DNA of 10,838 nt, from the UHGV virus genome UHGV-0114065; one strand, 5' to 3'. The position numbers and the translations under genes were made by a program. Below are positions 1-10,838 of the stretch, one piece after another (positions within the stretch are counted from its first letter, which is position 1; each line of letters begins with the position of its first letter). A model generated the notes under the pieces. The model did not search any database. It saw only the letters and a list, made by a program, of their open reading frames with translations, and was not told where the DNA came from. The stretch comes from a virus.

Positions 1-1
1 T

Positions 2-607
2 AAAAGCGCAAAGTATGCCGCAGAAGCTCAGAAGTATGCCGCAGACCTGCAAAATAAGCAGTTCAACACCATCATGAACAACCTGAAGCCGTTTACTCCT
101 CTGGCTGATAAGTATCTCGGCAGCCTCGAGAACTTATCGTCTCTGGAAGGGCAAGGTCAGGCGCTTAACCAGTATTACAACTCTCAGCAGTATAAAGATC
201 TTGCTGGTCAGGCTCGCTATCAGAGTCTGGCGGCAGCGGAAGCAACAGGTGGATTGGGTTCCACCGCAACCAGTAATCAGTTAGCAACAATCGCACCAAC
301 GCTTGGTCAGCAATGGCTATCTGGACAAATGAACAATTACAACAACCTGGCAAATATCGGTCTTGGCGCTCTTCAGGGACAGGCAAACGCCGGGCAAACA
401 TATGCCAACAACATGAGTCAGATTTCACAGCAAAGCGCGGCGCTGGCGGCGGCAAACGCCAACCGACCGTCAGCATTGCAGCAGGGTGTTAGTGGTGCTG
501 CATCCGGTGCGCTTTTGGGTGGTGGCATAGCCAGTGCTCTCGAGCTATCAACTCCGTGGGGTGCTGGTATCGGTGCTGGTCTTGGTCTGCTTGGTTCACT
601 GTTTTAA
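2..607 (+). CDS. DNA-ejection (E) protein, P22 gp7-like; 5' end lies upstream of the window (frame open from nt 2, first in-window ATG at 74)
   Basis: Frame 2 has no stop from nt 2 to TAA at 605-607. Low-complexity Q/A/G/N-rich sequence typical of podovirus ejection proteins. Sits directly upstream of gp20/gp16-like genes in P22 gene order. An AAGGGG RBS for the next gene follows its stop. Confidence 0.75.
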   Translation, partial: KSAKYAAEAQKYAADLQNKQFNTIMNNLKPFTPLADKYLGSLENLSSLEGQGQALNQYYNSQQYKDLAGQARYQSLAAAEATGGLGSTATSNQLATIAPTLGQQWLSGQMNNYNNLANIGLGALQGQANAGQTYANNMSQISQQSAALAAANANRPSALQQGVSGAASGALLGGGIASALELSTPWGAGIGAGLGLLGSLF

Positions 608-617
608 GGGGTAATCA

Positions 618-1997
618 ATGGCTACGTGGCAACAGGGTATTAATTCTGGTGGGTTTCTTGCTGGCATCGGTGCGCAAAATGAGAATGCGCCAAAGGCAAG
701 CGACATTAATGCAACGCTTGGTCTGATCCGCGAAAACAATGAACTGGCTCGCTCAGGTGCAAATAACGTTGGCCTGACCGCGTTACGTGGTCTGGCTGGA
801 GTTGCTGATATTTACAATCAGGAACAGCAACAGAAAGCTATTAGTGCGTTCAATAAGGTTCACGCTGATGCATGGGCTTCTGGTGATCCATCTGGACTAT
901 TTAAGTTTGCCCAGGAAAATCCAGCGTTTGTTGCACAGGCACAACAGGCGTTTTCCGGTCTTAATGAGCAGCAACGCAACGATATGGGCGATTTAGCCAT
1001 GAGGGCTAACGTCGCTCTTTCCCAGGGACCGGAAGCCTACAGTAAATTCATTACTGACAACAAGGACAGGTTAAATCGCGTTGGTGCTAATGCTGACTGG
1101 ATGATTCAGACAGGTATCCAGAATCCAGAGCAGCTATCACACATGCTGACTACTATGTCTCTCGGTGCGCTTGGACCAGAAAAGGCGTTTGCTGTTCAGG
1201 ACAAGATGGCTGGTCGTGAAATTGACAGAGGCAGGCTGGCAGAGACAATCCGCAGCAATCAGGCTGGCGAGGCGCTAACAGCACGTGGTCAGAATATCAC
1301 GATGCGCGGTCAGGATTTATCGATGCAGAGAGCATCAATGAAAGGATCGGTTGGGAATAATGAGCGTACAGTTCAGTTAGCAGATGGCAGAACTGTAACG
1401 GTAGGCGGGAAGCTTCACGGCGCTGGGGCTAATGCGTTCTACGAAGGTATCGACAACGAGGGGAATATGGTTCGCGTCCCTGCTGGCTCTATTGCCGCTC
1501 CGGCTACATCGGCAGCAAGCGCGCAGAATTACGCAATGAAGAAAGATCTTGATGCAATTTCTGGTGCATCAATTGACGATCTTGGCTTCATGACTGGCAT
1601 TACAGGCTCTTCAGGTTCTCCTGCTCTTGGTGCAGATATTCGTAGCCGTGCATCTGGTGGTGATCAGAGGAAACTATACAACGCTGCACAGCGAATCCAA
1701 GGAAAGATGCAGAATCAGGGCATTGCAGCAGCCAGAGACATGGGGGCATCCGGTATCAACACCGTTGCAGAAGCAAAGATGTATTTTCAAGGTATGCCAC
1801 AGGTTGATTTCTCAAGCCCTGAAGCACTGCAACAATCAATGCGCGACATTCAGCAATATACCGACAATTACAACCAGCAATATAACGTTAATGTCGGTAA
1901 TGGAGGGAAGAAATCATCAATGCAACAGCCGCCTACTCAGCAATCAGCAGGAGGTAGCTACACGTCAAAATCAGGCATTCAATTTACGGTGGAATGA
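618..1997 (+). CDS. DNA-ejection (E) protein, P22 gp20-like
   Basis: 459-aa ORF with ATG at 618 preceded by AAGGGG RBS. Size and position between the gp7-like and gp16-like genes match the P22 7-20-16 block (from memory). Its stop overlaps the next start (ATGATGA at 1994-1999). Confidence 0.8.
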
Positions 1998-3835
1998 TGA
2001 AAGTAACTGCAAACGGTAAGACATTTACCTTCCCTGATGGTACGAGCACGGAAGATATTGGCACCGCCATTGATGAGTATTTTGCTGGTCAGGCTGTTCA
2101 GCAACAAACAGTTAATCAGGCCAATAATGAACCAGCACGTGAAGAACCATCATTGATGCAACAAGCTGGCGATTGGATCACTGGTGGTCAAAGTGCAGGG
2201 CAAATTGCAGAGCAGGCTGGTCGTGGTCTGGTAAACATACCATTTGACGTATTGCAGGGTGGCGCAAGTCTGATTAATGCAATCAGTCAGGGGCTTGGTG
2301 GGCCAAAAGTATTGGATGATGTTTATCGTCCAGTAGACAGACCGACAGACCCCTACGCACAAGCAGGTGAAACAATTGGTGGGTATTTAGTTCCAGGAGT
2401 TGGAACGGCAGGAAGCATGGCTATTGGATCACTGGCAGAGGCCGCAAATCAGAAAGGCGATTTCGCACAAAATGCAGCTAAAAATGCCGGAGTTAACCTT
2501 GCCGCTCAGGGTGTTCTTTCCGCAGCAGCAAAGGGAATAGGGCGTGGAATAACGGCTATAAAAGGTGATATTGCGCCAGAAGTGGCGAAGAAAATTGCCA
2601 CATCAGAATCGATGGGCGTGACACCAATGACATCTGATGTTATCCCGCCGAAAAATGCTTTCACTCGCGGCCTTACTCAGGATGCCGAGGGGGCTTTGCT
2701 CGGGACAGGCTCAAAGAGAGCGGAGCAATATGCAACGCGTAGTAAGCTGGTAAGCAATTATTTTGACCGTTTTGGTGAGTACAACCCTGATGATGTGGTG
2801 AAATCTCTGACCACCACGTTAAGGGGGCGGAAGGATGCCGCTGGCGCTGTTATCAATGACATCACCAATAAAATGGGTAATGCCGCAGTTGATACCACAA
2901 ATACCATGAATGCTCTGAATACAGCGATCGCAAGACAGGAACGACTTGGGACGTCTGCCAATCAAAGCCTGCTTACATCCTTGCGTAACCTACGTGAAGA
3001 ATTAGCAAACCCTGCAACTGATTTGGATGTTACGTTTGATCTCTTGCGTCAGCACAGAACGGCATTTAGATCTAATGTTCAGGGAGATGCTATGGTCTTC
3101 CCCAACCAGGCAAAAGCAGCTACCAATATGGTAGAGAATGCAATGTCAAAAGACCTTCGTAACGCAGTTGCAAAAAACCTCGGTGCATCAGACGCAGCAA
3201 AATACCTTAAAGCAAATTCTGATTATGCAAACGTTTATAATAAGGTGCTTAATAAAAACATTGCTAACAAACTCAACAAGGCAAGCAGTGAAGCCAGCCC
3301 TGAACTTATAAATACCGTTGTATTAAGCAGAAAACCATCTGACGTGAAACGAATATGGAGCGCACTGGATGATAAAGGGAAAGATGCTATGCGTGCAGCT
3401 TACGTCAGCAAAATAGCGGAAAAGGTCGGTGTCTCTCCAGCCAAGTTCATCACTGAAGTTAATAAGCTGAAATCTCAGTCAGGCGGTGAAATTTACAACA
3501 CTATTTTTTCTGGAAAGCACATGAAAGAGCTTGATGCTCTTCATGAAGTTCTACAGCAAACAGCAAGGTCAGACACCGCAAATGTAGTAACTCAGACGGG
3601 GCAATCACAAGCCAACAGGATAAGGACGATTGGCGCAACTGCGACTCTTGGCGTATCAATGGGGATTGAGGCTGGTTTTGGTGCAATGATGCGTTTGTAT
3701 GAGTCCAAAGCAGCAAGGAATGCGCTCTTACGTCTGGCAAACACTAAAGCTGGAACGCCAGCTTATGAAAGAGCGCTAAATCAGGCTGCTACTGCCGTGC
3801 GCCCGCTCTTAGCTAACGAAGCGACCCGGCAGTAG
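1994..3835 (+). CDS. DNA-ejection (E) protein, P22 gp16-like
   Basis: 613-aa ORF, translationally coupled to the upstream gene. Length is close to P22 gp16 (about 609 aa, from memory). It is the last gene of the late structural operon before the immI region. Confidence 0.8.
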
Positions 3836-3857
3836 CACTGTAAGCCAAGGACGGCAT

Positions 3858-4340
3858 TTATTTTATAGTTTTTATGAATTCTTTATTAAATCCCTTAGCT
3901 TCTCCGGGGTATCTTCCAAAGACAATTTTTATAAAAACAGAAAAAATAAAGATAGCAACGCTTAACAACAGTTGCAGTATCATTGGAACCCAAAGAACTA
4001 CAGGCTCTATATTCATGAAACCAAATATTCTTCCGGCGATCATGGCGAAGTACCACACTGTTATCAGCAAACTTAGTGGCATATGAATTACTGATATTAC
4101 CAATCCAAGAGCATCAGTAATTCTATTTTCAAATTTTTCAGGGGAAAACTTTTCTTTAAGGTAATTCAGTGCGCAGGTCTCATTCTCTGGATTTTCAGCA
4201 TTTTTCCCTATAGCAATAGAAATCTCAGATATCCTTGATTCAATTCTTTTGCGTTTAATAAAACTAGAAAAAAAGAACCACGCAATCTGCAACCCTATCC
4301 CCATAAATAGAGTTGCGGCAACTAGCACAGCGTAACTCAT
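3858..4340 (-). CDS. Small inner-membrane protein (about 160 aa, three predicted TM helices) at the position of P22 sieA; candidate superinfection-exclusion protein
   Basis: Minus-strand ORF. Start placed at the first ATG (complement of 4338-4340, [24 protein letters not shown]...) rather than the GTG at 4424 given by the ORF track. Three long hydrophobic stretches are visible by eye. The DNA is AT-rich. Gene order 16 > / < membrane gene / < unknown / < mnt mirrors P22 16-sieA-hkcC-mnt as recalled. Homology to SieA itself was not verified. Confidence 0.55.
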
Positions 4341-4569
4341 AGAATCAGACACACCAACCTCTTTAGTTTTTCTAGTTACTTTGTCACGATAGGATATGCG
4401 AATTGATAAAACTAAATTGCGCACATGATAACTCAGTAATAATTGTTAATGAAAACATGATCACCTATATTGCACAAGGCGAAACAGGAAGCATAATCTG
4501 GTTTCATGAGTGTGATCACGTTTGGGTAAATCAAAGTCAAGAGGAAATACTTGAAATTATCAAAAATAA

Positions 4570-5151
4570 CTATCTAAACGTTGCACACGACTCATCTATC
4601 CATTTTTCATAAAATTGTATACCGAGATAGGCAAGAACAGATGGATGTATATCAACAAGCTTTTCGCCAAGATGTTCTGTTGGAGGTGGATAATCTTTGC
4701 CTTGGTTTCTTACGGTTATAGGCATAGTTGTTGCTGGATGAAACTCAACTATCATAGGGTCGCCTTCGTATTTTGCTATTTTCCCTGTTGAATCAATGAT
4801 TAACTCTTTAATATAATGGCTTCTTGCTCCCGGAAATGCCCCAAGAGTAGTATAAGGAGGTTCAAGTTTTGAGATTTCCATAGTGGAATGATGATCAGCA
4901 TTTCTTGCTTGGTGAAGGTAAGCAAGTGTTTTGTCTGTTTTTCTAAGCATGAACTTTTGGTTGAAGTGGCTGCTAAATTTTCCACTAACCGGCTTTGTTG
5001 CACAGAGCAACTTACTGAAAGACTTTTCTATATGCCCAAGACATTCTCGCCAGTGCATTTCAAAATCATCATGGTTTGTAGATGATTTCATCTGCTCTAG
5101 GCACTTTTTAGCTGCGATGATTTCTTTTTTTGCTGGGTTGTAATCGATCAT
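4570..5151 (-). CDS. Hypothetical protein (193 aa), translationally coupled downstream of mnt; function unknown
   Basis: Minus-strand ORF whose ATG (complement of 5149-5151) overlaps the mnt stop codon (ATGA overlap at 5148-5151). No TM segments and no motif I can assign. AT-rich. Confidence 0.7.
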   Translation of the reverse strand: MIDYNPAKKEIIAAKKCLEQMKSSTNHDDFEMHWRECLGHIEKSFSKLLCATKPVSGKFSSHFNQKFMLRKTDKTLAYLHQARNADHHSTMEISKLEPPYTTLGAFPGARSHYIKELIIDSTGKIAKYEGDPMIVEFHPATTMPITVRNQGKDYPPPTEHLGEKLVDIHPSVLAYLGIQFYEKWIDESCATFR

Positions 5152-5402
5152 TTTGCATCCTTGCCATACATGTTTTTAAGTGTCTCAAATACCACAGACT
5201 TGAACTGTTCAGCCTGCATCTCGGCTAATCGTTCAGCTTCATTGCGATAACCTTTTACAGGAGATGGTCTCGATAGAGCATCTTGGACGATTTGCAACAA
5301 TTCTGAGTTCATTGATCTACCATTTGACTCTGCTCTGTATTTTAATTTTTCTCTTACTTCCAAAGGCATGCGGAAGTTAAAGTGCGGATCATCTCTAGCC
5401 AT
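5148..5402 (-). CDS. mnt: Mnt repressor (ribbon-helix-helix; maintenance of Pant repression in lysogens)
   Basis: 84-aa product MARDDPHFNFRMPLEVREKLKYRAESNGRSMNSELLQIVQDAL... closely matches the P22 Mnt N-terminal RHH domain as I recall it. It is divergent from arc across the operator region. GGAG lies 9 nt upstream of the ATG on the minus strand. Confidence 0.9.
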   Translation of the reverse strand: MARDDPHFNFRMPLEVREKLKYRAESNGRSMNSELLQIVQDALSRPSPVKGYRNEAERLAEMQAEQFKSVVFETLKNMYGKDAK

Positions 5403-5424
5403 GCCATCACTCCAAGTTAGTGTA

Positions 5425-5453
5425 TTGACATGATAGAAGCACTCTACTATATT
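5425..5453 (+). promoter_or_regulatory. Pant promoter (-35 TTGACA 5425-5430, 17-bp spacer, -10 TATATT 5448-5453)
   Basis: Consensus -35 and near-consensus -10 with the arc operator in the spacer, as in the P22 immI region. It drives arc-ant. Confidence 0.8.
5430..5450. promoter_or_regulatory. Arc operator (21 bp, ATGATAGAAGCACTCTACTAT)
   Basis: Exact match to the P22 Oarc sequence as recalled, with TAGA/TCTA half-sites. It lies between the -35 and -10 of both Pant and Pmnt. Confidence 0.8.
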
Positions 5454-5458
5454 CTCAA
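5430..5458 (-). promoter_or_regulatory. Pmnt promoter (minus strand: -35 TTGAGA at 5453-5458, 17-bp spacer, -10 TATCAT at 5430-5435)
   Basis: Divergent promoter overlapping Pant. The hexamers were read from the reverse complement. Arrangement is consistent with the known P22 Pant/Pmnt overlap. Confidence 0.6.
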
Positions 5459-5477
5459 TAGGTCCACCGTGGACCTA
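5459..5477. promoter_or_regulatory. Mnt operator (palindrome TAGGTCCACCGTGGACCTA)
   Basis: 19-bp near-perfect palindrome centred on one base, matching the P22 Omnt as recalled. It overlaps the predicted Pant transcription start. Confidence 0.8.
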
Positions 5478-5492
5478 TATTGTGAGGTGAAC

Positions 5493-5654
5493 ATGAAAGG
5501 AATGAGCAAAATGCCGCAGTTCAATTTGCGGTGGCCTAAAGAAGTATTGGATTTGGTACGCAAGGTGGCGGAAGAGAATGGTCGGTCTGTTAACTCTGAG
5601 ATTTATCAGAGAGTAATGGACAGCTTTAAGAAGGAAGGGCGTATTGGCGCGTAA
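5493..5654 (+). CDS. arc: Arc repressor (53 aa, ribbon-helix-helix)
   Basis: [53 protein letters not shown] differs from recalled P22 Arc at only two positions (R16K, E43D). GAGGTG RBS precedes the ATG at 5493. The longer ORF from 5430 in the track runs through the operators and is not the real start. Confidence 0.93.
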
Positions 5655-5722
5655 AGTTGAAGCCCCAACTGCGGGAACAGTCAGGGCTTCTGTTGTCAGT
5701 AAATTCGTGGAGAAAAACCAAC
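5654..5722 (-). ncRNA. sar: sar antisense RNA (about 69 nt) complementary to the arc-ant intercistronic region and ant RBS
   Basis: Extended -10 promoter on the minus strand (TGCTATACT, complement of 5729-5737) places a start near 5722, the complement of the ant ATG. The transcript would cover the ant RBS (5709-5717) and a 7-bp inverted repeat (5659-5665 / 5684-5690), ending near the arc stop. This matches the published P22 sar arrangement; the ends are inferred, not measured. Confidence 0.45.
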
Positions 5723-6625
5723 ATGAATAGTATAGCAATTTTAGAAGCAGTGAACACCTCTTACGTACCTTTCAATGGTCAGCAGATTATCACCGCCATG
5801 ACTGCCGGAGTTGCATATGTTGCGATGAAGCCAATCGTTGAAAACCTTGGAATGAGCTGGTCAACGCAGCAAACAAAACTCATGAAGCAGATTAGCAAAT
5901 TCAACTGTGTTCATATGAACATGGTTGCCGCTGATGGTAAGCTTCGTAAGCTACTCTGCCTTCCTTTGAAGAAGTTAAATGGATGGCTGTTCAGCATCAA
6001 CCCTGAGAAAGTTCGTGCTGACATCCGCGATAAACTGATTCAGTACCAGGAAGAATGCTTTACTGTGCTGCATGACTACTGGACGAAGGGAAAGGCAGAA
6101 AATGCACGTAAGAAAACATCTGTTGATGACAGGACTCCGCTTCGTGATGCTGTAAATATGCTAGTCAGCAAAAAGCATCTAATGTACCCAGAAGCTTATG
6201 CAATGATTCATCAGCGTTTCAACGTGGAAAGTATTGAAGAGCTTGATTCATCTCAGATACCGCAAGCAGTAGAGTACATCCACAGGGTAGTGCTTGAAGG
6301 CGAGTTCATCGGCAAACAAGAGAAGAAAACCAACGAGCTTTCTGCAAAAGAAGCAAACAGCCTTGTATGGCTATGGGATTATGCCAACCGCTCACAGGCA
6401 TTATTCCGCGAACTGTATCCGGCGCTGAAACAAATTCAATCGAACTATTCCGGCAGATGTCATGACTGCGGTTATGAGTTCTCCCGTATTATCGATATAG
6501 CGAGAGACGTTTTAATCAATCACACACGAGATGTTGATATTAATGAGCCAGACGGACCAACGAATCTTTCCGCATGGATGAGACTTAAGAATAAAGAATT
6601 ACCTCCTTCAGTACATAACTACTGA
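5723..6625 (+). CDS. ant: Antirepressor Ant (300 aa)
   Basis: Start placed at ATG 5723 ([21 protein letters not shown]...) with GGAGAAAAA RBS; the track ORF from 5657 is an upstream in-frame extension. Position after arc and length of 300 aa match P22 Ant. Confidence 0.88.
5729..5737 (-). promoter_or_regulatory. Psar extended -10 element (TGnTATACT on minus strand)
   Basis: Read from the reverse complement of 5729-5737, inside the first codons of ant. No good -35 is present, consistent with an extended -10 promoter. Confidence 0.45.
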
Positions 6626-6643
6626 CAGATAACCAACACGACA

Positions 6644-6667
6644 ACCCAGCTTCGGCTGGGTTTTTTT
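6644..6667 (+). terminator. Rho-independent terminator after ant (stem ACCCAGC / GCTGGGT, loop TTCG, then T7)
   Basis: Perfect 7-bp GC-rich stem with a TTCG tetraloop, immediately followed by TTTTTTT. Located 19 bp after the ant stop. Confidence 0.85.
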
Positions 6668-6725
6668 ATGCCCAAAATTCACCGTAGCCACGCTGCGGCG
6701 ATTCCTTGCATCTGGAGCAAATTAA

Positions 6726-8495
6726 ATGACAGACATTACAGCCAATGTGATCGTATCGATGCCTTCGCAACTCTTCACTATGGCGCGTTCTTTTAAAGCT
6801 GTTGCCAATGGCAAAATTTATATCGGAAAAATTGACACTGACCCGGTAAATCCTGAAAACCAGATTCAGGTTTATGTAGAGAACGAAGACGGCTCTCACG
6901 TTCCTGTTTCGCAACCAATCATCATTAACGCTGCTGGTTACCCGGTATATAACGGACAGATTGCCAAGTTCGTAACTGTGCAAGGCCATTCTATGGCTGT
7001 TTATGATGCGTACGGTGCGCAGCAGTTTTATTATCCGAACGTACTAAAATACGACCCGGATCAGTACAGTAAAATGGTCGGAGGCCTTACAACACCAGTA
7101 ACATGGCCTGGGTTTGCCGGAGGAGCAGATCCGACCGGAGTTAATTCATCTACAGCGGCTTTTCAAGCGTCATTGGATCAGATCGGCTACATTAACATGC
7201 CGCCAGGGGAGTACTTAATTGATGAAAGCTTAAACCTTGCAAAATCAGCTGTAATCTTTGGTGCTGGGAGATCGCTATCGAAGTTAAAATTCTCCGGGAA
7301 TTCTGCAACGCCTTTCGTTAAGGCTGCATTAGGGTACGCATCAACCGATTTAGTATATTTGCGTGATTTCACAGCCATTGCCACAGTTCCAAACTGCGGC
7401 CCTCTGGTTTCAATAAAAACAGATGCCGCCGCGCAATCTGCATCTCAGGTCGTTGTTGGTGATTTAGACAAACTAGTCATTAACAATGTTGATGCTTATG
7501 GTGATTCAAGCGGGAACTACTGGAATTGTGGCTTTGAAGCCATCGACTGCGGTGGTGTCCATATTCATAATTTCACAGTTAATAACAGGACTGTTTCGGC
7601 GCAAACTGACACATCGACATCTGGATTCAGGTTCAGAACTACGGCGCAAAAAGTAAGTGTAATACGCGCCCTGACAGCACAGGATTTCTACCTACTGAGA
7701 ATGTATTACGGCATCGACACGAAGCCGTTTAATAATCTCGGGGGCGGGATTACCAGTTATTATCTTTCCGACTTCGAAATCGTTGGCGTCAGGAATGGAA
7801 TAAGGGCTCAGAACTGGTGTGCGGCATGGCGAGTTACTGGGCATATCGATTCTACTGAGCAATGCCTAAACTTCCAGGGGGCGGGATTAACAAACGCACG
7901 GTTCACTGGCTGCGATTTCAGAAAAGGGAATAACGGCGGGCTAGGTTATGTTGCAGGACCAATGGTTACCCTGGACTACGGTGAGCAAATAACTTTCACG
8001 GGCGCGACGTTCTCCGGAATAAACCTCAATCTTGCTGACCCAAGCAATACTGCTTTTAGTTTTACCAATGCTTACAACGGCAACTGGGCATTTCTGATCA
8101 GTATTGACGGAAATACTTTTACTAAGTTTCACAACGTCATTGGGCAGACTAATAGCACCAATATTATTAGTATCGGCATTAATTCTTACAACCAGATTGC
8201 CGATGCAATAACCTTCGATTCAAATCTTGATCCAAGCTTTAGGCTTCAGACACCAATTCCAAGCATCAGCAAAGTTGTTGCCTTGCCAGTGGGAGATAGT
8301 ACATTTACCGTAAATGTTACCGCTAACCGTTTCAAAAATGCGCCTAACTATGCTGATGCTCGCCCGGTGAATAACCCAACTCAGAATGTCAGGGTTGTTT
8401 ATGATTATGCCGGATCTACAGCGAGCGCACTGCTTTTTAGGGTTTATGGAGTGGTGACCGCTGGGAACTTCCGATTTGGCATAATTACGGCATAA
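6726..8495 (+). CDS. Tailspike protein: P22 gp9-type N-terminal head-binding domain (about aa 1-115) fused to a divergent receptor-binding/enzymatic domain
   Basis: N-terminus [34 protein letters not shown]...VTVQGHSM...[11 protein letters not shown] matches the P22 tailspike head-binding domain from memory. Downstream of about nt 7070 the sequence is unrelated to the P22 endorhamnosidase domain. GGAG RBS at 6713-6716. Confidence 0.85.
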
Positions 8496-8513
8496 GCAAT
8501 ACAGGAGAAATAA

Positions 8514-8807
8514 ATGCGAGATATTTCACCACTGCTTCATGCTGTCACCGCTTTAGCTGTTCAGGCTGCTTTTGGCCTTTCCTCACGCGATTGGATAACT
8601 GGGGGTCTGCTGGGGAGTCTTTGGTTTATCGCTCGCGAGCACACCCAGGCTGAGTATCGCTGGATTGCCCAGTTCGGCGCAGGGAAGCGCGCCAACATGC
8701 CGTGGTGGGGCGGGTTCTCCTGGCGCGCATGGAACCTTCCCAGCATGCTCGACTGGATTGTGCCGGTGGCGACCTGCGCTGCCGTTTATTTTGCCTCCAC
8801 CCTTTAA
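8514..8807 (+). CDS. Hypothetical small membrane protein (97 aa), G+C-rich cargo gene immediately downstream of the tailspike
   Basis: ATG at 8514 with AGGAG RBS 6 nt upstream. Two or three hydrophobic/Trp-rich segments by eye. Composition is visibly more G+C-rich than flanking phage genes. It sits where P22-like phages carry O-antigen conversion genes (gtr or oac). Confidence 0.6.
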   Translation: MRDISPLLHAVTALAVQAAFGLSSRDWITGGLLGSLWFIAREHTQAEYRWIAQFGAGKRANMPWWGGFSWRAWNLPSMLDWIVPVATCAAVYFASTL

Positions 8808-8863
8808 CTCCTGTCGAGCTCATTGATAGGCGCCGACACATTGATCTGCACCTCCTTTAAAAC

Positions 8864-8883
8864 TACTGTATATAAAAACAGTA
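8864..8883. promoter_or_regulatory. LexA (SOS) box TACTGTATATAAAAACAGTA
   Basis: CTGT-N8-ACAG with 18 of 20 positions matching the E. coli consensus TACTGTATATATATACAGTA. It ends 1 nt before the AAGGAG RBS (8885-8890) of the downstream gene. Confidence 0.7.
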
Positions 8884-8898
8884 AAAGGAGTGCAGGTC

Positions 8899-9138
8899 AT
8901 GCCACGCCGTTCCGACATTCACGCCGCATTTGTGGCCGCAATACAGCTAAACCCCAAGGGCTACCGGTGCTTACGCACAGAAGACTTTATCCGCGAACTG
9001 GCAAAGGTCCACTGGCATTTCAGCCGGGCCGACGCCAACGAGTGGATAGAGCGCTATCAGCCCGACTTCACCGACAAGACAACTGACGGAACCGACAATC
9101 ACTACTGGATCCTGCGCAATATGGGGAGGGTTCACTGA
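8899..9138 (+). CDS. Hypothetical small protein (79 aa), first gene of the SOS-box-controlled cassette
   Basis: ATG at 8899 with AAGGAG 8 nt upstream; the ORF track starts it at a GTG at 8890 inside the RBS. Its stop overlaps the next gene's start (TGATG at 9136-9140). No recognisable family. Confidence 0.6.
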   Translation: MPRRSDIHAAFVAAIQLNPKGYRCLRTEDFIRELAKVHWHFSRADANEWIERYQPDFTDKTTDGTDNHYWILRNMGRVH

Positions 9139-9455
9139 TGGGCTTTCCTTCACCGGCGGGCGACTACGTAGAGCAGCGGTTAACACCGGAGCGTATCTGC
9201 GGGATCGGCATGGACAGCCGCATCCTCGAAACATCATCCGGCTTTGCCGTTATCGAACCGTGCACCAGGCTGGTACAGAATCAGGTTCTGCTGATTTTAT
9301 CTGGCGGCAGAACGCAGTTTGCCAGGGTAATGGGTAGGGCATTAATCACTGATGATGGTGAAGCGATCGAAGGGGAGGAGGCGGAGGAAGTTGAGGTGCT
9401 GGGGCGCGTGACGTTCTTCATCAACAGCGCGCTACAGGATGACAGGGTGGTTTGA
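9138..9455 (+). CDS. UmuD'-like protein (degenerate S24/LexA-type peptidase fold, starts at the position of the UmuD cleavage site; catalytic Ser/Lys not evident)
   Basis: N-terminus MGFPSPAGDYVEQRL matches UmuD residues 25-38 (GFPSPAADYVEQRI), the first residues of processed UmuD'. The C-terminal pattern EVEVLGRVTFFINSA resembles the last beta-strands of UmuD/LexA. GGGGAGGG RBS 7 nt upstream. I could not find the conserved Ser-Met and Thr-Val-Lys motifs. Confidence 0.65.
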   Translation: MGFPSPAGDYVEQRLTPERICGIGMDSRILETSSGFAVIEPCTRLVQNQVLLILSGGRTQFARVMGRALITDDGEAIEGEEAEEVEVLGRVTFFINSALQDDRVV

Positions 9456-9465
9456 TTGGGTGGCA

Positions 9466-10623
9466 TTACGCCACCTTTTCATCAAGCCAGTCCGCCCACC
9501 ACTGCATCATTTCTCTGCGCTTATCGAGATACTGAGCATGGTTGTAAATCCCGCGCACAGATCCGCCGTTGGCATGTGCCAGTTGCACTTCAATAGCGTC
9601 GGCAGGCCATTCGTGCTCGTTCATAATCGTGCTGAATTCATGCCTGAATCCGTGACCGCTTTCCAGACCTTCATAGCCGATTTGTTTGATCACAAGCAAT
9701 ACCGCGTTCTCGCAGATTGGCTTTTTCTTATCATTGCGCCCGGCAAAAACAAACTCTGATACTGGTTTGGTGATTGAGCTTAGCGTAGTGAGAAGTTCAA
9801 CCACCTGGTCCGACATCGGGACCACATGAATTTTGCGTCCCTTCATCACACTGGCGTCGATGGTGATAATCCTGTTTTCAAAATCGACGTTCTTCCATTG
9901 CATGGAACGAAGCTCTTTCGTTCTTAGGGCTGTGTAGCGTAAAACTTTGGTCGCAATGAGCGATACGATACTTCCTGAAAATGTTGCCAGTGCTTTGTTG
10001 AATGCCGGGATCTGGTCTGCAGGAAGAAACGGGAAGTTCTTCTTGCGGTATCCCTTCATGGCGTCAGCAAGGTCAGGTGCCGGGTTATATTTAGCCCTAC
10101 CAGTGACAATAGCGTAACGGAAAACCTCGCCGCATCTTCTGCGGGCTTTGTTGGCTCGCTCCATTGCACCGCGATCTTCAAATCTGCGGATTACTTCCAG
10201 CAGTTGCATCGGCTCAATATCCTGAATTTCAAGGCCGCCGATGATAGGTAAAATGTCGTCATCAAACATTTTTGCAAGTTCAGTTGCATAGCCTACTGAC
10301 CAGACTTGCTTCTTGTGCTCGTACCATTCCTTGTAAATGGCGCTAAAGGAATTGTTGTTAGACGAAGCCTTTTTCGCCTTTACCGGATCGATGCCAACCG
10401 AGATGTCTTTCCTCGCAGTCCATGCTTTATCCCTTGCCTCTTGCAAAGTCATAAGCGGGTATTTTCCGACGGTCAGGATTTTCTCCTTACCGTCAATCTT
10501 GTAGCGAAGCTGCCATACCTTTTTCCCTGACACAGGGACATAAAGGTACAGGCCATTACCATCGAGAAGGCGGTATGGTTTTTCTTTCGGCTTTGCTGCT
10601 TCAATCTGCTTAACGGTGAGCAT
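9466..10623 (-). CDS. int: Tyrosine integrase, P4/IntS family (385 aa from ATG at 10623; alternative GTG start at 10659)
   Basis: N-terminus MLTVKQIEAAKPKEKPYRLLDGNGLYLYV is typical of P4-family integrases. Catalytic residues are visible (R in LRTKELR, HGFRH, Y in GIYNHAQY). It reads away from the adjacent tRNA 3' end, as expected for tRNA-targeting P4-type integrases. Confidence 0.9.
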   Translation of the reverse strand: MLTVKQIEAAKPKEKPYRLLDGNGLYLYVPVSGKKVWQLRYKIDGKEKILTVGKYPLMTLQEARDKAWTARKDISVGIDPVKAKKASSNNNSFSAIYKEWYEHKKQVWSVGYATELAKMFDDDILPIIGGLEIQDIEPMQLLEVIRRFEDRGAMERANKARRRCGEVFRYAIVTGRAKYNPAPDLADAMKGYRKKNFPFLPADQIPAFNKALATFSGSIVSLIATKVLRYTALRTKELRSMQWKNVDFENRIITIDASVMKGRKIHVVPMSDQVVELLTTLSSITKPVSEFVFAGRNDKKKPICENAVLLVIKQIGYEGLESGHGFRHEFSTIMNEHEWPADAIEVQLAHANGGSVRGIYNHAQYLDKRREMMQWWADWLDEKVA

Positions 10624-10668
10624 GGGTAAAAATCCGGTGGGTAAAATTATTTTATCCACTTTTTACCC
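10624..10668. repeat. Three copies of a 9-bp motif GGGTAAAA(A/T) in the integrase leader (10624-10632, 10639-10647, and inverted at 10660-10668)
   Basis: Read directly from the sequence. Two direct copies and one inverted copy lie within 45 bp immediately 5' of the int ATG. Candidate integrase arm-type or regulator sites. Confidence 0.4.
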
Positions 10669-10785
10669 GTCATGGAGTGCGGCTGTCAACGATCTGACGC
10701 GAACCATTACGAACTGTGAATCTACGGAAGTCTTGGTATTCAGGGGATTTTGCGGACTGGTACGGATGGGAGCGAACTGATAAAT

Positions 10786-10838
10786 GGTGTCCCCTGCAGG
10801 AATCGAACCTGCAATTAGCCCTTAGGAGGGGCTCGTTA
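10786..10838 (-). tRNA. argW: tRNA-Arg (anticodon CCU), 3' portion only; 5' part lies beyond the window end. Probable prophage attL core
   Basis: Reverse complement of 10786-10838 reads TAACGAGCCCCTCCTAAGGGCTAATTGCAGGTTCGATTCCTGCAGGGGACACCA. This gives an anticodon arm AGCCC-CUCCUAA-GGGCU (anticodon CCU), a T-arm with GGTTCGATTCC, and a 3' CCA. It matches enterobacterial argW from memory. Confidence 0.9.

What the first reader, a model, noticed from the sequence alone, without database searches (positions are those of the whole stretch)
8514..8807. G+C-rich 97-aa membrane protein occupying the O-antigen conversion slot
It lies directly after the tailspike stop with a strong RBS, so it is probably co-transcribed with the late operon or from a local promoter. 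It replaces the gtr/oac-type conversion genes expected at this position. It is hydrophobic and Trp/Gly-rich, with composition distinct from neighbouring phage genes, suggesting an independently acquired moron. It could alter the envelope, for example superinfection exclusion or receptor masking matched to the new tailspike specificity.
Basis: partly seen in the sequence, partly recalled or inferred. Interest (0 to 1): 0.5.

Follow-up and report, generated by a model that had tools for sequence, protein, structure and literature searches.

The report
Conserved small membrane protein after tailspike
The 97-codon ORF is a real, strongly conserved gene for a small three-helix membrane protein of unknown function that sits behind the receptor-binding tail gene of hundreds of different temperate phages and also occurs in sphingomonad chromosomes, so it is a good target for experiments but not a known O-antigen conversion gene.

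Summary
Window 8514-8807 (+) is an intact 97-aa ORF with AGGAG 6 nt before its ATG, 18 nt after the tailspike stop. It is G+C-rich (58% against 45%) and rich in Trp, Gly and Ala.

It belongs to an uncharacterised family (phrog_1443, UniProt 'Ybl63'). The family has no Pfam, NCBIfam, PADLOC or PDB relative. It is under purifying selection (dN/dS about 0.15) and occurs in at least 1068 of 5426 complete E. coli genomes. AlphaFold2 gives a very confident three-helix model (pLDDT 97.9) with no informative structural match.

In most of 84 phage loci it directly follows a receptor-binding tail gene on the same strand. Those tail genes fall into 32 unrelated types. No promoter of its own was detected, so it looks like the last cistron of the tail-gene transcript.

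A prophage 97.5% identical in the flanks carries another tailspike domain plus gtrA/B/S in this slot.

Sphingomonad chromosomes hold stand-alone copies with the same invariant core (H9, R41, E42, Q45, E47, W73, D80, P84), which argues against a function tied to one O-antigen.

My best guess, at low confidence, is an inner-membrane protein that binds a conserved envelope ligand. A role matched to the tailspike's specificity is not supported.

The parts
8503..8507 (+). Shine-Dalgarno AGGAG, 6 nt before the ATG and 8 nt after the tailspike stop codon
   Evidence: Read from the sequence
8514..8807 (+). ORF97, a 97-aa member of the phrog_1443/'Ybl63' family of small membrane proteins
8526..8585 (+). 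Helix 1 (residues 5-24). Hydrophobic and fast-evolving, but it holds the nearly invariant His9
   Evidence: AF2 models; hydropathy; pN/pS 0.45 for codons 1-36
8592..8675 (+). Helix 2 (residues 27-54). It has a Gly-rich hydrophobic first half followed by the invariant motif R41-E42-x-x-Q45-A46-E47-Y-R-W-I
8676..8735 (+). Trp-rich loop (residues 55-74, GAGKRANMPWWGGFSWRAWN), modelled with high confidence
   Evidence: pLDDT at or above 97 in every 10-residue block; columns invariant in A4
8736..8801 (+). Helix 3 (residues 75-96), hydrophobic, with invariant Asp80 and Pro84 at its start
8622..8801 (+). Conserved core at DNA level. Nucleotide homology to other carriers of the cassette begins at codon 37, inside the ORF
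   Evidence: blastn breakpoints at 8622 against L001, L002 and L003; 92% identity over 8622-8801 to E. coli MB20
6726..8495 (+). Tailspike gene, the upstream cistron. It has a P22 head-binding domain (aa 1-113) and a pectate-lyase-like distal part
   Evidence: Pfam PF09008 E 1e-66 and PF12708
7066..9464 (+). Mosaic segment (tailspike distal part, ORF97, ORF79 and ORF105). It replaces 'another tailspike distal part plus gtrS/B/A' of an otherwise 97.5% identical prophage
8808..9455 (+). Cargo that travels with ORF97 in this clade. It comprises a LexA box TACTGTATATAAAAACAGTA (8864-8883) overlapping a putative promoter TTGATC(8841-8846)-17-TACTGT, then ORF79 (8899-9138) and ORF105 (9138-9455, whose N-terminus resembles the UmuD' arm)

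Best explanation
ORF97 is an intact gene for a 97-aa integral inner-membrane protein of the uncharacterised phrog_1443/'Ybl63' family. The protein has three helices and a structured Trp-rich loop.

Shown or strongly supported. ORF97 is the last cistron of the tailspike transcription unit: it follows the tailspike stop after 18 nt with a strong RBS, and no promoter of its own was detected. It forms the left end of a G+C-rich cargo island (8514-9455). That island, together with the tailspike's receptor-binding part, was swapped into an argW P22-like prophage at the place where a near-identical relative carries gtrA/B/S. The family's core is conserved regardless of which receptor-binding protein precedes it, and it is equally conserved in stand-alone chromosomal copies in sphingomonads.

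Inferred, with about 0.6 confidence for the geometry and about 0.3 for the biological role. The protein inserts N-out/C-in. By helix register, His9, Arg41/Glu42, Gln45/Glu47, Asp80 and the Trp-rich loop all lie at the same membrane face, probably the periplasmic one. There they would form a small binding or catalytic pocket for a ligand that is conserved from alpha- to gamma-proteobacteria. Candidates are a metal ion, a polyprenyl-phosphate-linked envelope precursor, or a conserved inner-membrane machine. The phage copy, made together with the tail gene late in infection or after induction, would then perturb an envelope process at the inner membrane. The likely benefit would be blocking entry of further phage or lowering surface receptor display. 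It would not serve the tailspike itself and would not modify one particular O-antigen.
For: The gene is real and selected: phrog_1443 match at E 3e-36; 406 and 1297 clusters at 90% identity; 386 representatives at 50% identity, all 63-142 aa; dN/dS 0.15, and pN/pS 0.11 in codons 37-78.

Fold: AF2 gives pLDDT 97.9 and pTM 0.85, with helices 5-24, 27-54 and 75-96.

Invariant residues: H9, R41, E42, Q45, A46, E47, W73, D80 and P84 across sequences of about 30% identity, and the same residues between the window copy and sphingomonad copies.

Operon position: most of 84 loci have a long same-strand receptor-binding-protein gene ending from 7 nt of overlap to about 100 nt before the start. Promoter-like scores upstream are no higher than in internal control regions (5.6 against 5.4 and 5.9; window 4.3 against 9.0 for the LexA promoter region). 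Intrinsic terminators follow the gene in other clades.

Independence from the tail gene: 32 clusters of upstream-protein C-termini; a J-type fibre in Comamonas; LamG and S74 types; decayed remnants behind tail genes of virulent phages.

Cellular copies: after ligA, next to pnp, cyclophilin and OMP genes.

Topology: basic C-terminal tails and an Arg in loop 1 in the sphingomonad copies; an acidic residue at position 3.

Mosaic swap.

Against: Topology is ambiguous for the phage copies. Region 41-77 carries 5 Lys/Arg, which by the positive-inside rule would place it in the cytoplasm. I had no model coordinates, so the clustering of the His, Glu and Asp residues rests on helix register only.

Intact copies in isolated phages were found mainly in temperate phages, and the copies checked in virulent phages were decayed remnants. 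That fits a lysogeny-specific role better than a late lytic one.

Late co-expression is inferred from sequence only.
Confidence: 0.42

Rival explanations
1. This is the first reader's view: a lysogenic-conversion or superinfection-exclusion moron. Under it, ORF97 is expressed from the prophage and alters the envelope (O-antigen or receptor) so that lysogens are protected from phages carrying this tailspike.
For: It occupies the slot where close relatives carry gtrA/B/S or list an acyltransferase and where epsilon15 carries an O-antigen-ligase-family gene. Its G+C content differs from the surrounding phage DNA. Intact copies in isolated phages are mainly in temperate phages, and the copies checked in virulent phages are decayed. 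No gtr gene and only one acyltransferase lie near the gene in about 85 loci. Small stand-alone phage proteins that alter O-antigen do exist (the Gnarl proteins, PMC12373910).
Against: No promoter of its own was found in the window, and promoter-like sequences are not enriched upstream in 71 loci. Starts often overlap the upstream tail gene. The same core accompanies 32 types of receptor-binding protein, including protein-binding J-type fibres. Chromosomal copies occur in sphingomonads, which from general knowledge lack LPS O-antigen. There is no similarity to gtr, oac or Gnarl proteins.
Confidence: 0.22
2. A lysis-related protein, such as a holin, antiholin or lysis-timing factor, made at the end of the late operon.
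For: It is about 100 aa with three transmembrane segments, and the inferred N-out/C-in topology is that of class I holins (general knowledge). In the Uetakevirus phiv142-3 it lies directly before two holin genes and the endolysin. From general knowledge, T7 and T4 place their holins after tail-fibre genes. One distant member gave a weak Phage_holin_8 match (E 0.0036).
Against: The window copy has no charged C-terminal tail. A 37-residue invariant loop and invariant polar residues are unlike holins. The carrier phage checked (phiv142-3) already has two holin genes. Stand-alone chromosomal copies sit next to housekeeping genes. The Pfam match is in 1 of 49 members and below any curated threshold.
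Confidence: 0.08
3. A membrane-bound assembly or maturation factor for the tailspike or tail fibre encoded just upstream.
For: Adjacency on the same strand is tight and often overlapping in most of 84 loci. Pairs of loci with the same tail-gene type have more similar ORF97 N-terminal regions.
Against: The core does not vary with tail-gene type (32 clusters). Virulent phages keep the tail genes while ORF97 is reduced to a frameshifted or truncated remnant. The N-terminal similarity is what physical linkage alone predicts, and the window's N-terminus is not closer to L018 or L040, which share its tailspike type. Chromosomal copies have no tail gene nearby.
Confidence: 0.07
4. A passenger with no benefit to the phage. 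Under this view it persists because its conserved DNA core serves as the right-hand homology arm for swapping receptor-binding modules between phages.
For: DNA homology between otherwise unrelated prophages starts inside the ORF at codon 37. The Kuttervirus remnant ends inside the conserved core, at residue 52. Synonymous divergence is somewhat lower in the core than in codons 1-36 (pS 0.53 against 0.70).
Against: Purifying selection at the protein level is strong (pN/pS 0.11 in the core while pS is still 0.53). Reading-frame length is conserved. The predicted fold is confident. Distant chromosomal copies keep the same invariant residues. Serving as a recombination arm can be a by-product.
Confidence: 0.06

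Closest known systems
phrog_1443 / UniProt 'Ybl63' (E2QKS6, E. coli B Rac prophage) / phage 21 CPT_21_24 'putative membrane protein'
   Same: It gives a full-length HMM match (E 3e-36). It has the same length and the same invariant motifs. It has the same position after a tail-fibre gene.
   Different: The window copy is only 57% identical to the phage 21 copy and to the lambda hybrids that carry the same gene. It belongs to a G+C-rich clade that carries a LexA-controlled two-gene cassette downstream. The family has no assigned function.
gtrABC, oac and wzy-beta O-antigen conversion genes of P22-like and epsilon15-like phages
   Same: It occupies the same genomic slot between the tailspike gene and int/att. 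It is a membrane protein with a foreign base composition.
   Different: It has no sequence or profile similarity to them. It lies on the tailspike strand and no promoter of its own was found, whereas the gtr genes of the relative lie on the opposite strand. It is a single 97-aa protein, against gtr products of 120, 305 and 488 aa in the relative.
Gnarl1-3, small stand-alone phage proteins that alter O-antigen (Nat Commun 2025, PMC12373910)
   Same: These are small (40-90 aa) accessory phage proteins proposed to act on envelope glycan synthesis without phage enzymes. That is the kind of mechanism considered here.
   Different: hhalign finds no relationship to Gnarl2 (Mu gp7) or Gnarl3. The ORF97 tblastn search returned no Mu, Klebsiella or Mangalitsa record. 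Gnarl3 binds cytoplasmic GalU, whereas ORF97 is a predicted integral membrane protein.
Exclusion proteins encoded next to receptor-binding genes (Cor of phi80/T1/N15, Llp of T5) and inner-membrane exclusion proteins (P22 SieA, T4 Imm, HK97 gp15), from general knowledge; SieA abstract seen
   Same: Like them it is a small envelope protein. Like Cor and Llp it sits beside the receptor-binding gene. Like SieA and Imm it is predicted to be in the inner membrane.
   Different: There is no homology, and a separate SieA-like gene is already present at 3858-4424. Those proteins are specific to one receptor or entry route, whereas this family accompanies many kinds of receptor-binding protein and has cellular homologues.
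Class I holins such as lambda S105 (general knowledge)
   Same: It is of similar size, has three transmembrane helices, and has a possible N-out/C-in topology.
   Different: It has a long invariant loop and invariant polar residues. The window copy has no charged C-terminal tail. It is not next to an endolysin gene in the window.

Membership tests
phrog_1443 / 'Ybl63' small membrane protein family | Full-length profile match | tested here: met
   E 3e-36, residues 3-94 against profile positions 2-93 of 97
phrog_1443 / 'Ybl63' small membrane protein family | Stand-alone protein of about 95-101 aa with the motif H...GRExxQAEYRWI...G.R.NMPWWGGF...W...LD..P | tested here: met
   Alignments A1, A2 and A4; length distribution
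phrog_1443 / 'Ybl63' small membrane protein family | Position directly after a tail-fibre or tailspike gene in phages | tested here: met
   18 nt after the tailspike stop in the window; the same arrangement in most of 84 loci and in Comamonas, Leclercia, Pantoea and E. ruysiae genomes
Gtr-type O-antigen glucosylation (GtrA PF04138, GtrB GT2, GtrC) | Profile match to GtrA, GtrB or GtrC | tested here: not met
   No Pfam match for the window protein or for 49 family members. tblastn with the gtrA, gtrB and gtrS of the related prophage finds nothing in the window
Oac-type O-antigen acyltransferase (Acyl_transf_3) | Acyltransferase of about 330 aa with about 10 transmembrane segments, giving a profile match | tested here: not met
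   The protein is 97 aa with no Pfam match and no tblastn similarity to the L002 acyltransferase
Gnarl proteins | Sequence relationship to Gnarl2 or Gnarl3 | tested here: not met
   hhalign probability 0.04% and 0.7%
Gnarl proteins | Expression shifts the O-antigen ladder and sensitises wild E. coli to T5 | not testable with these tools
   This needs LPS gels and plaque assays
Moron (gene with its own promoter and terminator inserted between phage genes) | Base composition different from the flanks | tested here: met
   GC 58% against 45%, GC3 61% against 44%. The same contrast holds for the whole clade
Moron (gene with its own promoter and terminator inserted between phage genes) | Own promoter upstream | tested here: not met
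   No + strand promoter-like site before the ORF. PWM score 4.3 in the window, and no enrichment in 71 loci. This is a sequence-based test only
Class I holin | Three transmembrane domains, N-out/C-in | tested here: inconclusive
   Three helices are predicted. Orientation is inferred from the basic tails of sphingomonad homologues, but charge counts of the phage copies are ambiguous
Class I holin | Charged cytoplasmic C-terminal tail and adjacency to an endolysin gene | tested here: not met
   The window protein ends ...YFASTL directly after helix 3. No lysis genes are found in the window
Known anti-phage defence or exclusion proteins (PADLOC; SieA) | Profile match | tested here: not met
   PADLOC gives no match. 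The SieA-like protein of the window is a different gene at 3858-4424

The most novel reading that the evidence does not exclude
ORF97 may represent a minimal (about 97 aa, three-helix) membrane module with a His/Glu/Asp and Trp-rich pocket at the periplasmic face. That pocket would bind or process a universally conserved envelope intermediate, such as a polyprenyl-phosphate-linked glycan, or a metal. The module would be shared between sphingomonad chromosomes and the phages of entero-, aero- and comamonads. Phages would deploy it as a generic envelope modifier or exclusion factor that travels with the tail gene, making it a new class of stand-alone conversion factor. Its conserved DNA core would double as the right-hand recombination arm for swapping receptor-binding modules.
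Probability: 0.18. Interest if true: 0.7.

Novelty: new member of a known kind. Interest (0 to 1): 0.5.

Why it matters
About one complete E. coli genome in five carries this gene, with up to five places per genome. It sits at the most actively exchanged spot of temperate phage genomes, the receptor-binding module, yet nothing is known about what it does. It has a very confident predicted fold, a handful of invariant polar residues that make obvious mutagenesis targets, and cellular homologues. That makes it an unusually tractable 'hypothetical protein'. If it alters the envelope or blocks phage entry it would affect phage host range, phage-therapy design and serotyping. If it is a tiny enzyme or ligand-binding module it would be of wider interest for membrane biochemistry. 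For annotation, it marks the right-hand boundary of swappable tailspike modules.

Tried and rejected
Profile and sequence searches gave nothing. This covers Pfam, NCBIfam and PADLOC on the window protein and on 49 or 14 diverse members, and PDB sequence search with a profile.

I rejected a Gnarl relationship. I rejected relevance of Kapi1: its candidate between tailspike and integrase is acyltransferase-like and gave no LPS change.

I rejected the terminator-like hairpin inside the ORF (8764-8784) as chance. Its T-run comes from the Val-Tyr-Phe codons and is not kept in homologues.

I tested whether the long hairpin around the LexA box is a conserved RNA structure. RNAalifold kept only the LexA palindrome, and the 5' arm varies without compensation.

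I tested whether the variable N-terminal third tracks the tail-gene type. The only effect seen is what linkage predicts.

Literature searches for 'Ybl63', WP_000355360 and tail-gene-adjacent exclusion proteins found nothing on this family. Context look-ups of two distant members returned contigs too short to use.

Full report
**What is in the window.** The window is the right end of a P22-like prophage. In order it holds:
- ejection-protein genes at 74-3835 (+);
- a SieA-like gene at 3858-4424 (-);
- an unknown 193-aa gene;
- mnt at 5148-5402 (-);
- sar antisense RNA at 5655-5722 (-);
- ant, ending at 6625 (+);
- a tailspike gene at 6726-8495 (+), with a P22 head-binding domain and a pectate-lyase-like distal part;
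- the ORF in question at 8514-8807 (+);
- two further small genes at 8899-9138 and 9138-9455 (+);
- an IntS-type integrase gene at 9466-10659 (-);
- the 3' part of a tRNA at the window's edge.

**Check of the observation.**
- The tailspike stop is at 8493-8495. AGGAG is at 8503-8507 and the ATG at 8514.
- The product is 97 aa with 8 Trp, 8 Gly and 15 Ala, and has three hydrophobic stretches.
- G+C is 58.2% (GC3 61%), against 45.4% (GC3 44%) for the tailspike. The G+C-rich island runs on to 9455 and includes the two downstream genes.
- The ORF is not a fragment. It matches phrog_1443 end to end (E 3e-36), and homologues are 95-101 aa.
- It is under purifying selection: median dN/dS is 0.15 at a mean dS of about 1.
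- Selection is uneven along the gene. Codons 1-36 evolve fast (pN/pS 0.45), while codons 37-78 are almost frozen (pN/pS 0.11).

**The 'conversion slot' claim.** Window 1-7065 and 9465-10838 are 97.5% identical to an argW prophage of E. coli YA-1. The segment between differs. The window has the tailspike distal part, ORF97, ORF79 and ORF105. YA-1 has another tailspike distal part plus gtrS, gtrB and gtrA on the opposite strand. Other relatives have an empty slot or list an acyltransferase among the features under the match. In epsilon15 the slot after the tailspike holds an O-antigen-ligase-family gene. In the related Uetakevirus phiv142-3 an ORF97 homologue sits there instead. The positional statement is therefore correct.

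**How widespread the family is.**
- A sequence search finds 406 clusters at 90% identity. A profile search finds 1297.
- An exhaustive profile search finds 386 representatives at 50% identity. All are stand-alone proteins of 63-142 aa.
- 521 IMG/VR contigs carry it, as do 70 isolated phage genomes. These include phage 21, lambda hybrids, P22-like phages and Uetakeviruses.
- At least 1068 of 5426 complete E. coli genomes carry it, with up to five places per genome.
- E. coli B/BL21 has a copy in its Rac prophage. UniProt calls it Ybl63.
- Every source calls it hypothetical. Phage 21's annotators noted a signal-like N-terminus and two TMHMM segments.
- Pfam, NCBIfam, PADLOC and PDB sequence search find nothing, even for distant members.

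**Invariant residues and where they sit.** His9, Arg41, Glu42, Gln45, Ala46, Glu47, Trp73, Asp80 and Pro84 are invariant or nearly so across the family. By helix register, residue 9 lies about 15 residues from the helix 1-2 turn, and so does residue 42. Residue 80 lies about 16 residues from the end of helix 3. His9, Glu42 and Asp80 should therefore sit at the same depth, at the membrane face opposite the hairpin turn. This is an inference. I had no coordinates to check it.

**Genomic context in phages.** In 84 loci the gene nearly always follows a long same-strand gene, either directly or after a small tail-fibre-assembly-type gene. The gap ranges from a 7-nt overlap to about 100 nt.
- The upstream proteins fall into 32 clusters by their C-terminal 150 residues.
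- They have several different N-terminal anchors: P22 head-binding, epsilon15-like, lambda Stf-like, and a type found downstream of TipJ-family tail genes.
- Their domains include beta-helix tailspikes, S74-chaperone fibres and LamG fibres. A Comamonas prophage has a 2520-aa J-type tip protein upstream.
- PHROG tail families also precede the gene in Comamonas, Pantoea, Leclercia and E. ruysiae genomes.
- Promoter-like scores in the 150 nt upstream are no higher than in internal control regions. The means are 5.6 against 5.4 and 5.9 (n = 71). The window scores 4.3, against 9.0 for the LexA promoter region and 16.3 for the Pant region.
- Outside the window's clade the gene is typically followed by an intrinsic terminator. 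In some loci a terminator also precedes it, which antiterminated late transcription would read through.
- Together this makes ORF97 the last cistron of the tail-gene transcript. It is not a classical moron with its own promoter.

**It is not needed by the tail gene.** In HC6, whose taxonomy line names no genus and which I take to be a virulent Dhillonvirus-like phage, an S74-type fibre gene is followed by a frameshifted and prematurely stopped remnant covering aa 42-95. In the Kuttervirus KFSST3 a gene lying next to an annotated tailspike gene is followed by a remnant of aa 1-52 only. These phages plate, so their tail proteins work without ORF97. The remnants also show that the gene travels with receptor-binding modules. 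DNA homology between the window and other carriers begins at 8622, which is codon 37, inside the gene. The conserved core therefore acts in practice as a recombination junction. Synonymous divergence in the core is still 0.53, so the conservation is mainly at the protein level.

**Cellular homologues.** A scan of one genome per species found the family in many taxa:
- Enterobacterales: Leclercia, Silvania, Pantoea, Phytobacter and Escherichia;
- Aeromonas;
- Betaproteobacteria: Comamonas, Acidovorax and Pigmentiphaga;
- Alphaproteobacteria: Chelativorans, Devosia and many Sphingomonas and Sphingomicrobium.

In the sphingomonads the gene is not behind a tail gene. It follows ligA in three genomes. 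In others it lies next to pnp, cyclophilin and cyclase genes, an OMP gene, a Slam-type gene or a cytidine deaminase gene. The core is essentially identical to the window's. These copies carry an Arg-rich C-terminal tail and an Arg in the helix 1-2 loop. By the positive-inside rule that puts the C-terminus and loop 1 in the cytoplasm and the conserved 41-77 region in the periplasm. The conserved acidic residue 3 of the enterobacterial copies fits an N-out orientation. The phage copies alone are ambiguous, because region 41-77 has 5 Lys/Arg. From general knowledge sphingomonads lack LPS O-antigen, so a biochemical activity specific to O-antigen is unlikely.

**What it most likely does.**
- What is shown: it is a real, selected, small membrane protein. 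It is positionally and probably transcriptionally tied to the tail gene. It is independent of tail-gene type. It is dispensable for tail function. It has cellular homologues.
- What is inferred: a polar and aromatic pocket at one membrane face, probably the periplasmic one, recognises something conserved across Proteobacteria. Candidates are a metal, a polyprenyl-phosphate-linked precursor or a conserved inner-membrane machine.
- The phage copy would then perturb an envelope process when the tail genes are expressed. The likely benefit is exclusion of further phage or reduced receptor display.
- I put about 0.9 on the descriptive part, about 0.6 on the geometry, and about 0.3 on the envelope or exclusion role.
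- The rivals, with evidence for and against each, are listed separately: a lysogeny-expressed conversion or exclusion moron, a lysis factor, a tail-assembly factor, and a functionless passenger.

**Comparison with known systems.** ORF97 is a member of phrog_1443/Ybl63, and all features tested for that family are met. It is not a Gtr, Oac, Gnarl, SieA or PADLOC family member, because the profile tests are not met. The moron definition is only half met: composition yes, own promoter no. Holin features are partly inconclusive and partly not met. Functionally the nearest ideas are the Gnarl proteins (PMC12373910), the exclusion genes encoded beside receptor-binding genes (Cor, Llp), and the inner-membrane exclusion proteins (SieA, Imm). 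These are analogies, not tested relationships.

**Novelty and score.** The gene is a new member of a catalogued but uncharacterised family. The new points from this analysis are:
- the strict tail-gene adjacency across 32 types of receptor-binding protein;
- the lack of a detectable promoter;
- the decay in virulent phages;
- the very confident fold;
- the invariant His/Glu/Asp set;
- the sphingomonad chromosomal branch.

I score interest at 0.5. It is not surprising to find a conserved hypothetical gene here, but this one is an unusually well-defined and tractable target.

Noticed in passing
window 8808-9455: An SOS-controlled two-gene cassette follows ORF97. It has a perfect LexA box TACTGTATATAAAAACAGTA (8864-8883) overlapping a putative promoter (TTGATC at 8841-8846, 17-nt spacer, TACTGT). 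ORF79 (8899-9138) belongs to phrog_3893, of unknown function. ORF105 (9138-9455) has a first 20 residues equal to the UmuD' N-terminal arm, starting exactly at the post-cleavage Gly25, while the rest cannot be aligned to UmuD. The box sits about 62 nt after the ORF97 stop in some 40 other loci.
   Followed up: partly
window 8839-8901: An extended inverted repeat (GCACCTCCTTT at 8848-8858 and AAAGGAGTGC at 8884-8893) flanks the LexA box. As RNA the region folds at -37 kcal/mol (z = -5.8) and pairs the ORF79 ribosome-binding site and start codon. This could silence ORF79 on read-through transcripts. However, across 38 loci the 5' arm varies without compensating changes, so a conserved RNA structure is not supported.
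   Followed up: yes
window 8812-8838: A short hairpin encloses the first of two ATTGAT(A/C) repeats just after the ORF97 stop. Its stem sequences differ between loci in a way that looks compensatory (GTCG/CGAC in the window, GGCGGC/GCCGCC elsewhere). No T-run follows it, and its role is unknown.
   Followed up: no
L089 3965-4162; L098 4001-4156: Decayed remnants of the ORF97 gene lie directly behind tail genes of virulent phages. In HC6 and relatives the N-terminal part is deleted and there is a premature stop. In Kuttervirus KFSST3 only aa 1-52 remain.
   Followed up: yes
L159 4004-4282, L141, L161, L133, L138, L142, L152: Stand-alone chromosomal homologues occur in Sphingomonas, Sphingomicrobium and uncultured Alphaproteobacteria. 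They lie next to housekeeping genes (after ligA in three genomes), have the same invariant core, and carry an Arg-rich C-terminal tail.
   Followed up: partly
window 7065/7066 and 9464/9465: These are sharp mosaic breakpoints against the E. coli YA-1 argW prophage. The left one falls at the end of the tailspike head-binding domain. The right one falls just before the integrase gene's stop.
   Followed up: yes
L004 4713-4991; L090 6602-6880: In phage 21 and in the E. coli B Rac prophage a 92-aa gene (phrog_1361, unknown function) sits between the side-tail-fibre gene and the ORF97 homologue. It may be a partner gene in that clade.
   Followed up: no
L093 10248-11795: In a Comamonas testosteroni prophage the ORF97 homologue follows a 2520-aa J-type protein. 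A umuD/umuC-like pair (Peptidase_S24 and IMS) lies about 2 kb downstream. This is a second case of translesion-synthesis genes near this family.
   Followed up: no
window 5655-5722 (-): This matches the Rfam sar RNA (91 bits), the antisense RNA of the P22 immI region. It overlaps the start of ant, which suggests the listed TTG start at 5657 for ant is too far upstream.
   Followed up: no
window 10788-10838 (-): This is the 3' part of a tRNA, cut by the window end (Rfam tRNA, 31.7 bits). ARAGORN missed it. It corresponds to the tRNA-Arg next to intS in related E. coli prophages.
   Followed up: partly
window 3858-5151 (-): A SieA-like superinfection-exclusion gene (phrog_7745, E 2e-108) lies here, followed by a 193-aa gene of unknown function (phrog_23516). 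Both are A+T-rich (35-39% GC) and sit between the ejection genes and mnt.
   Followed up: no
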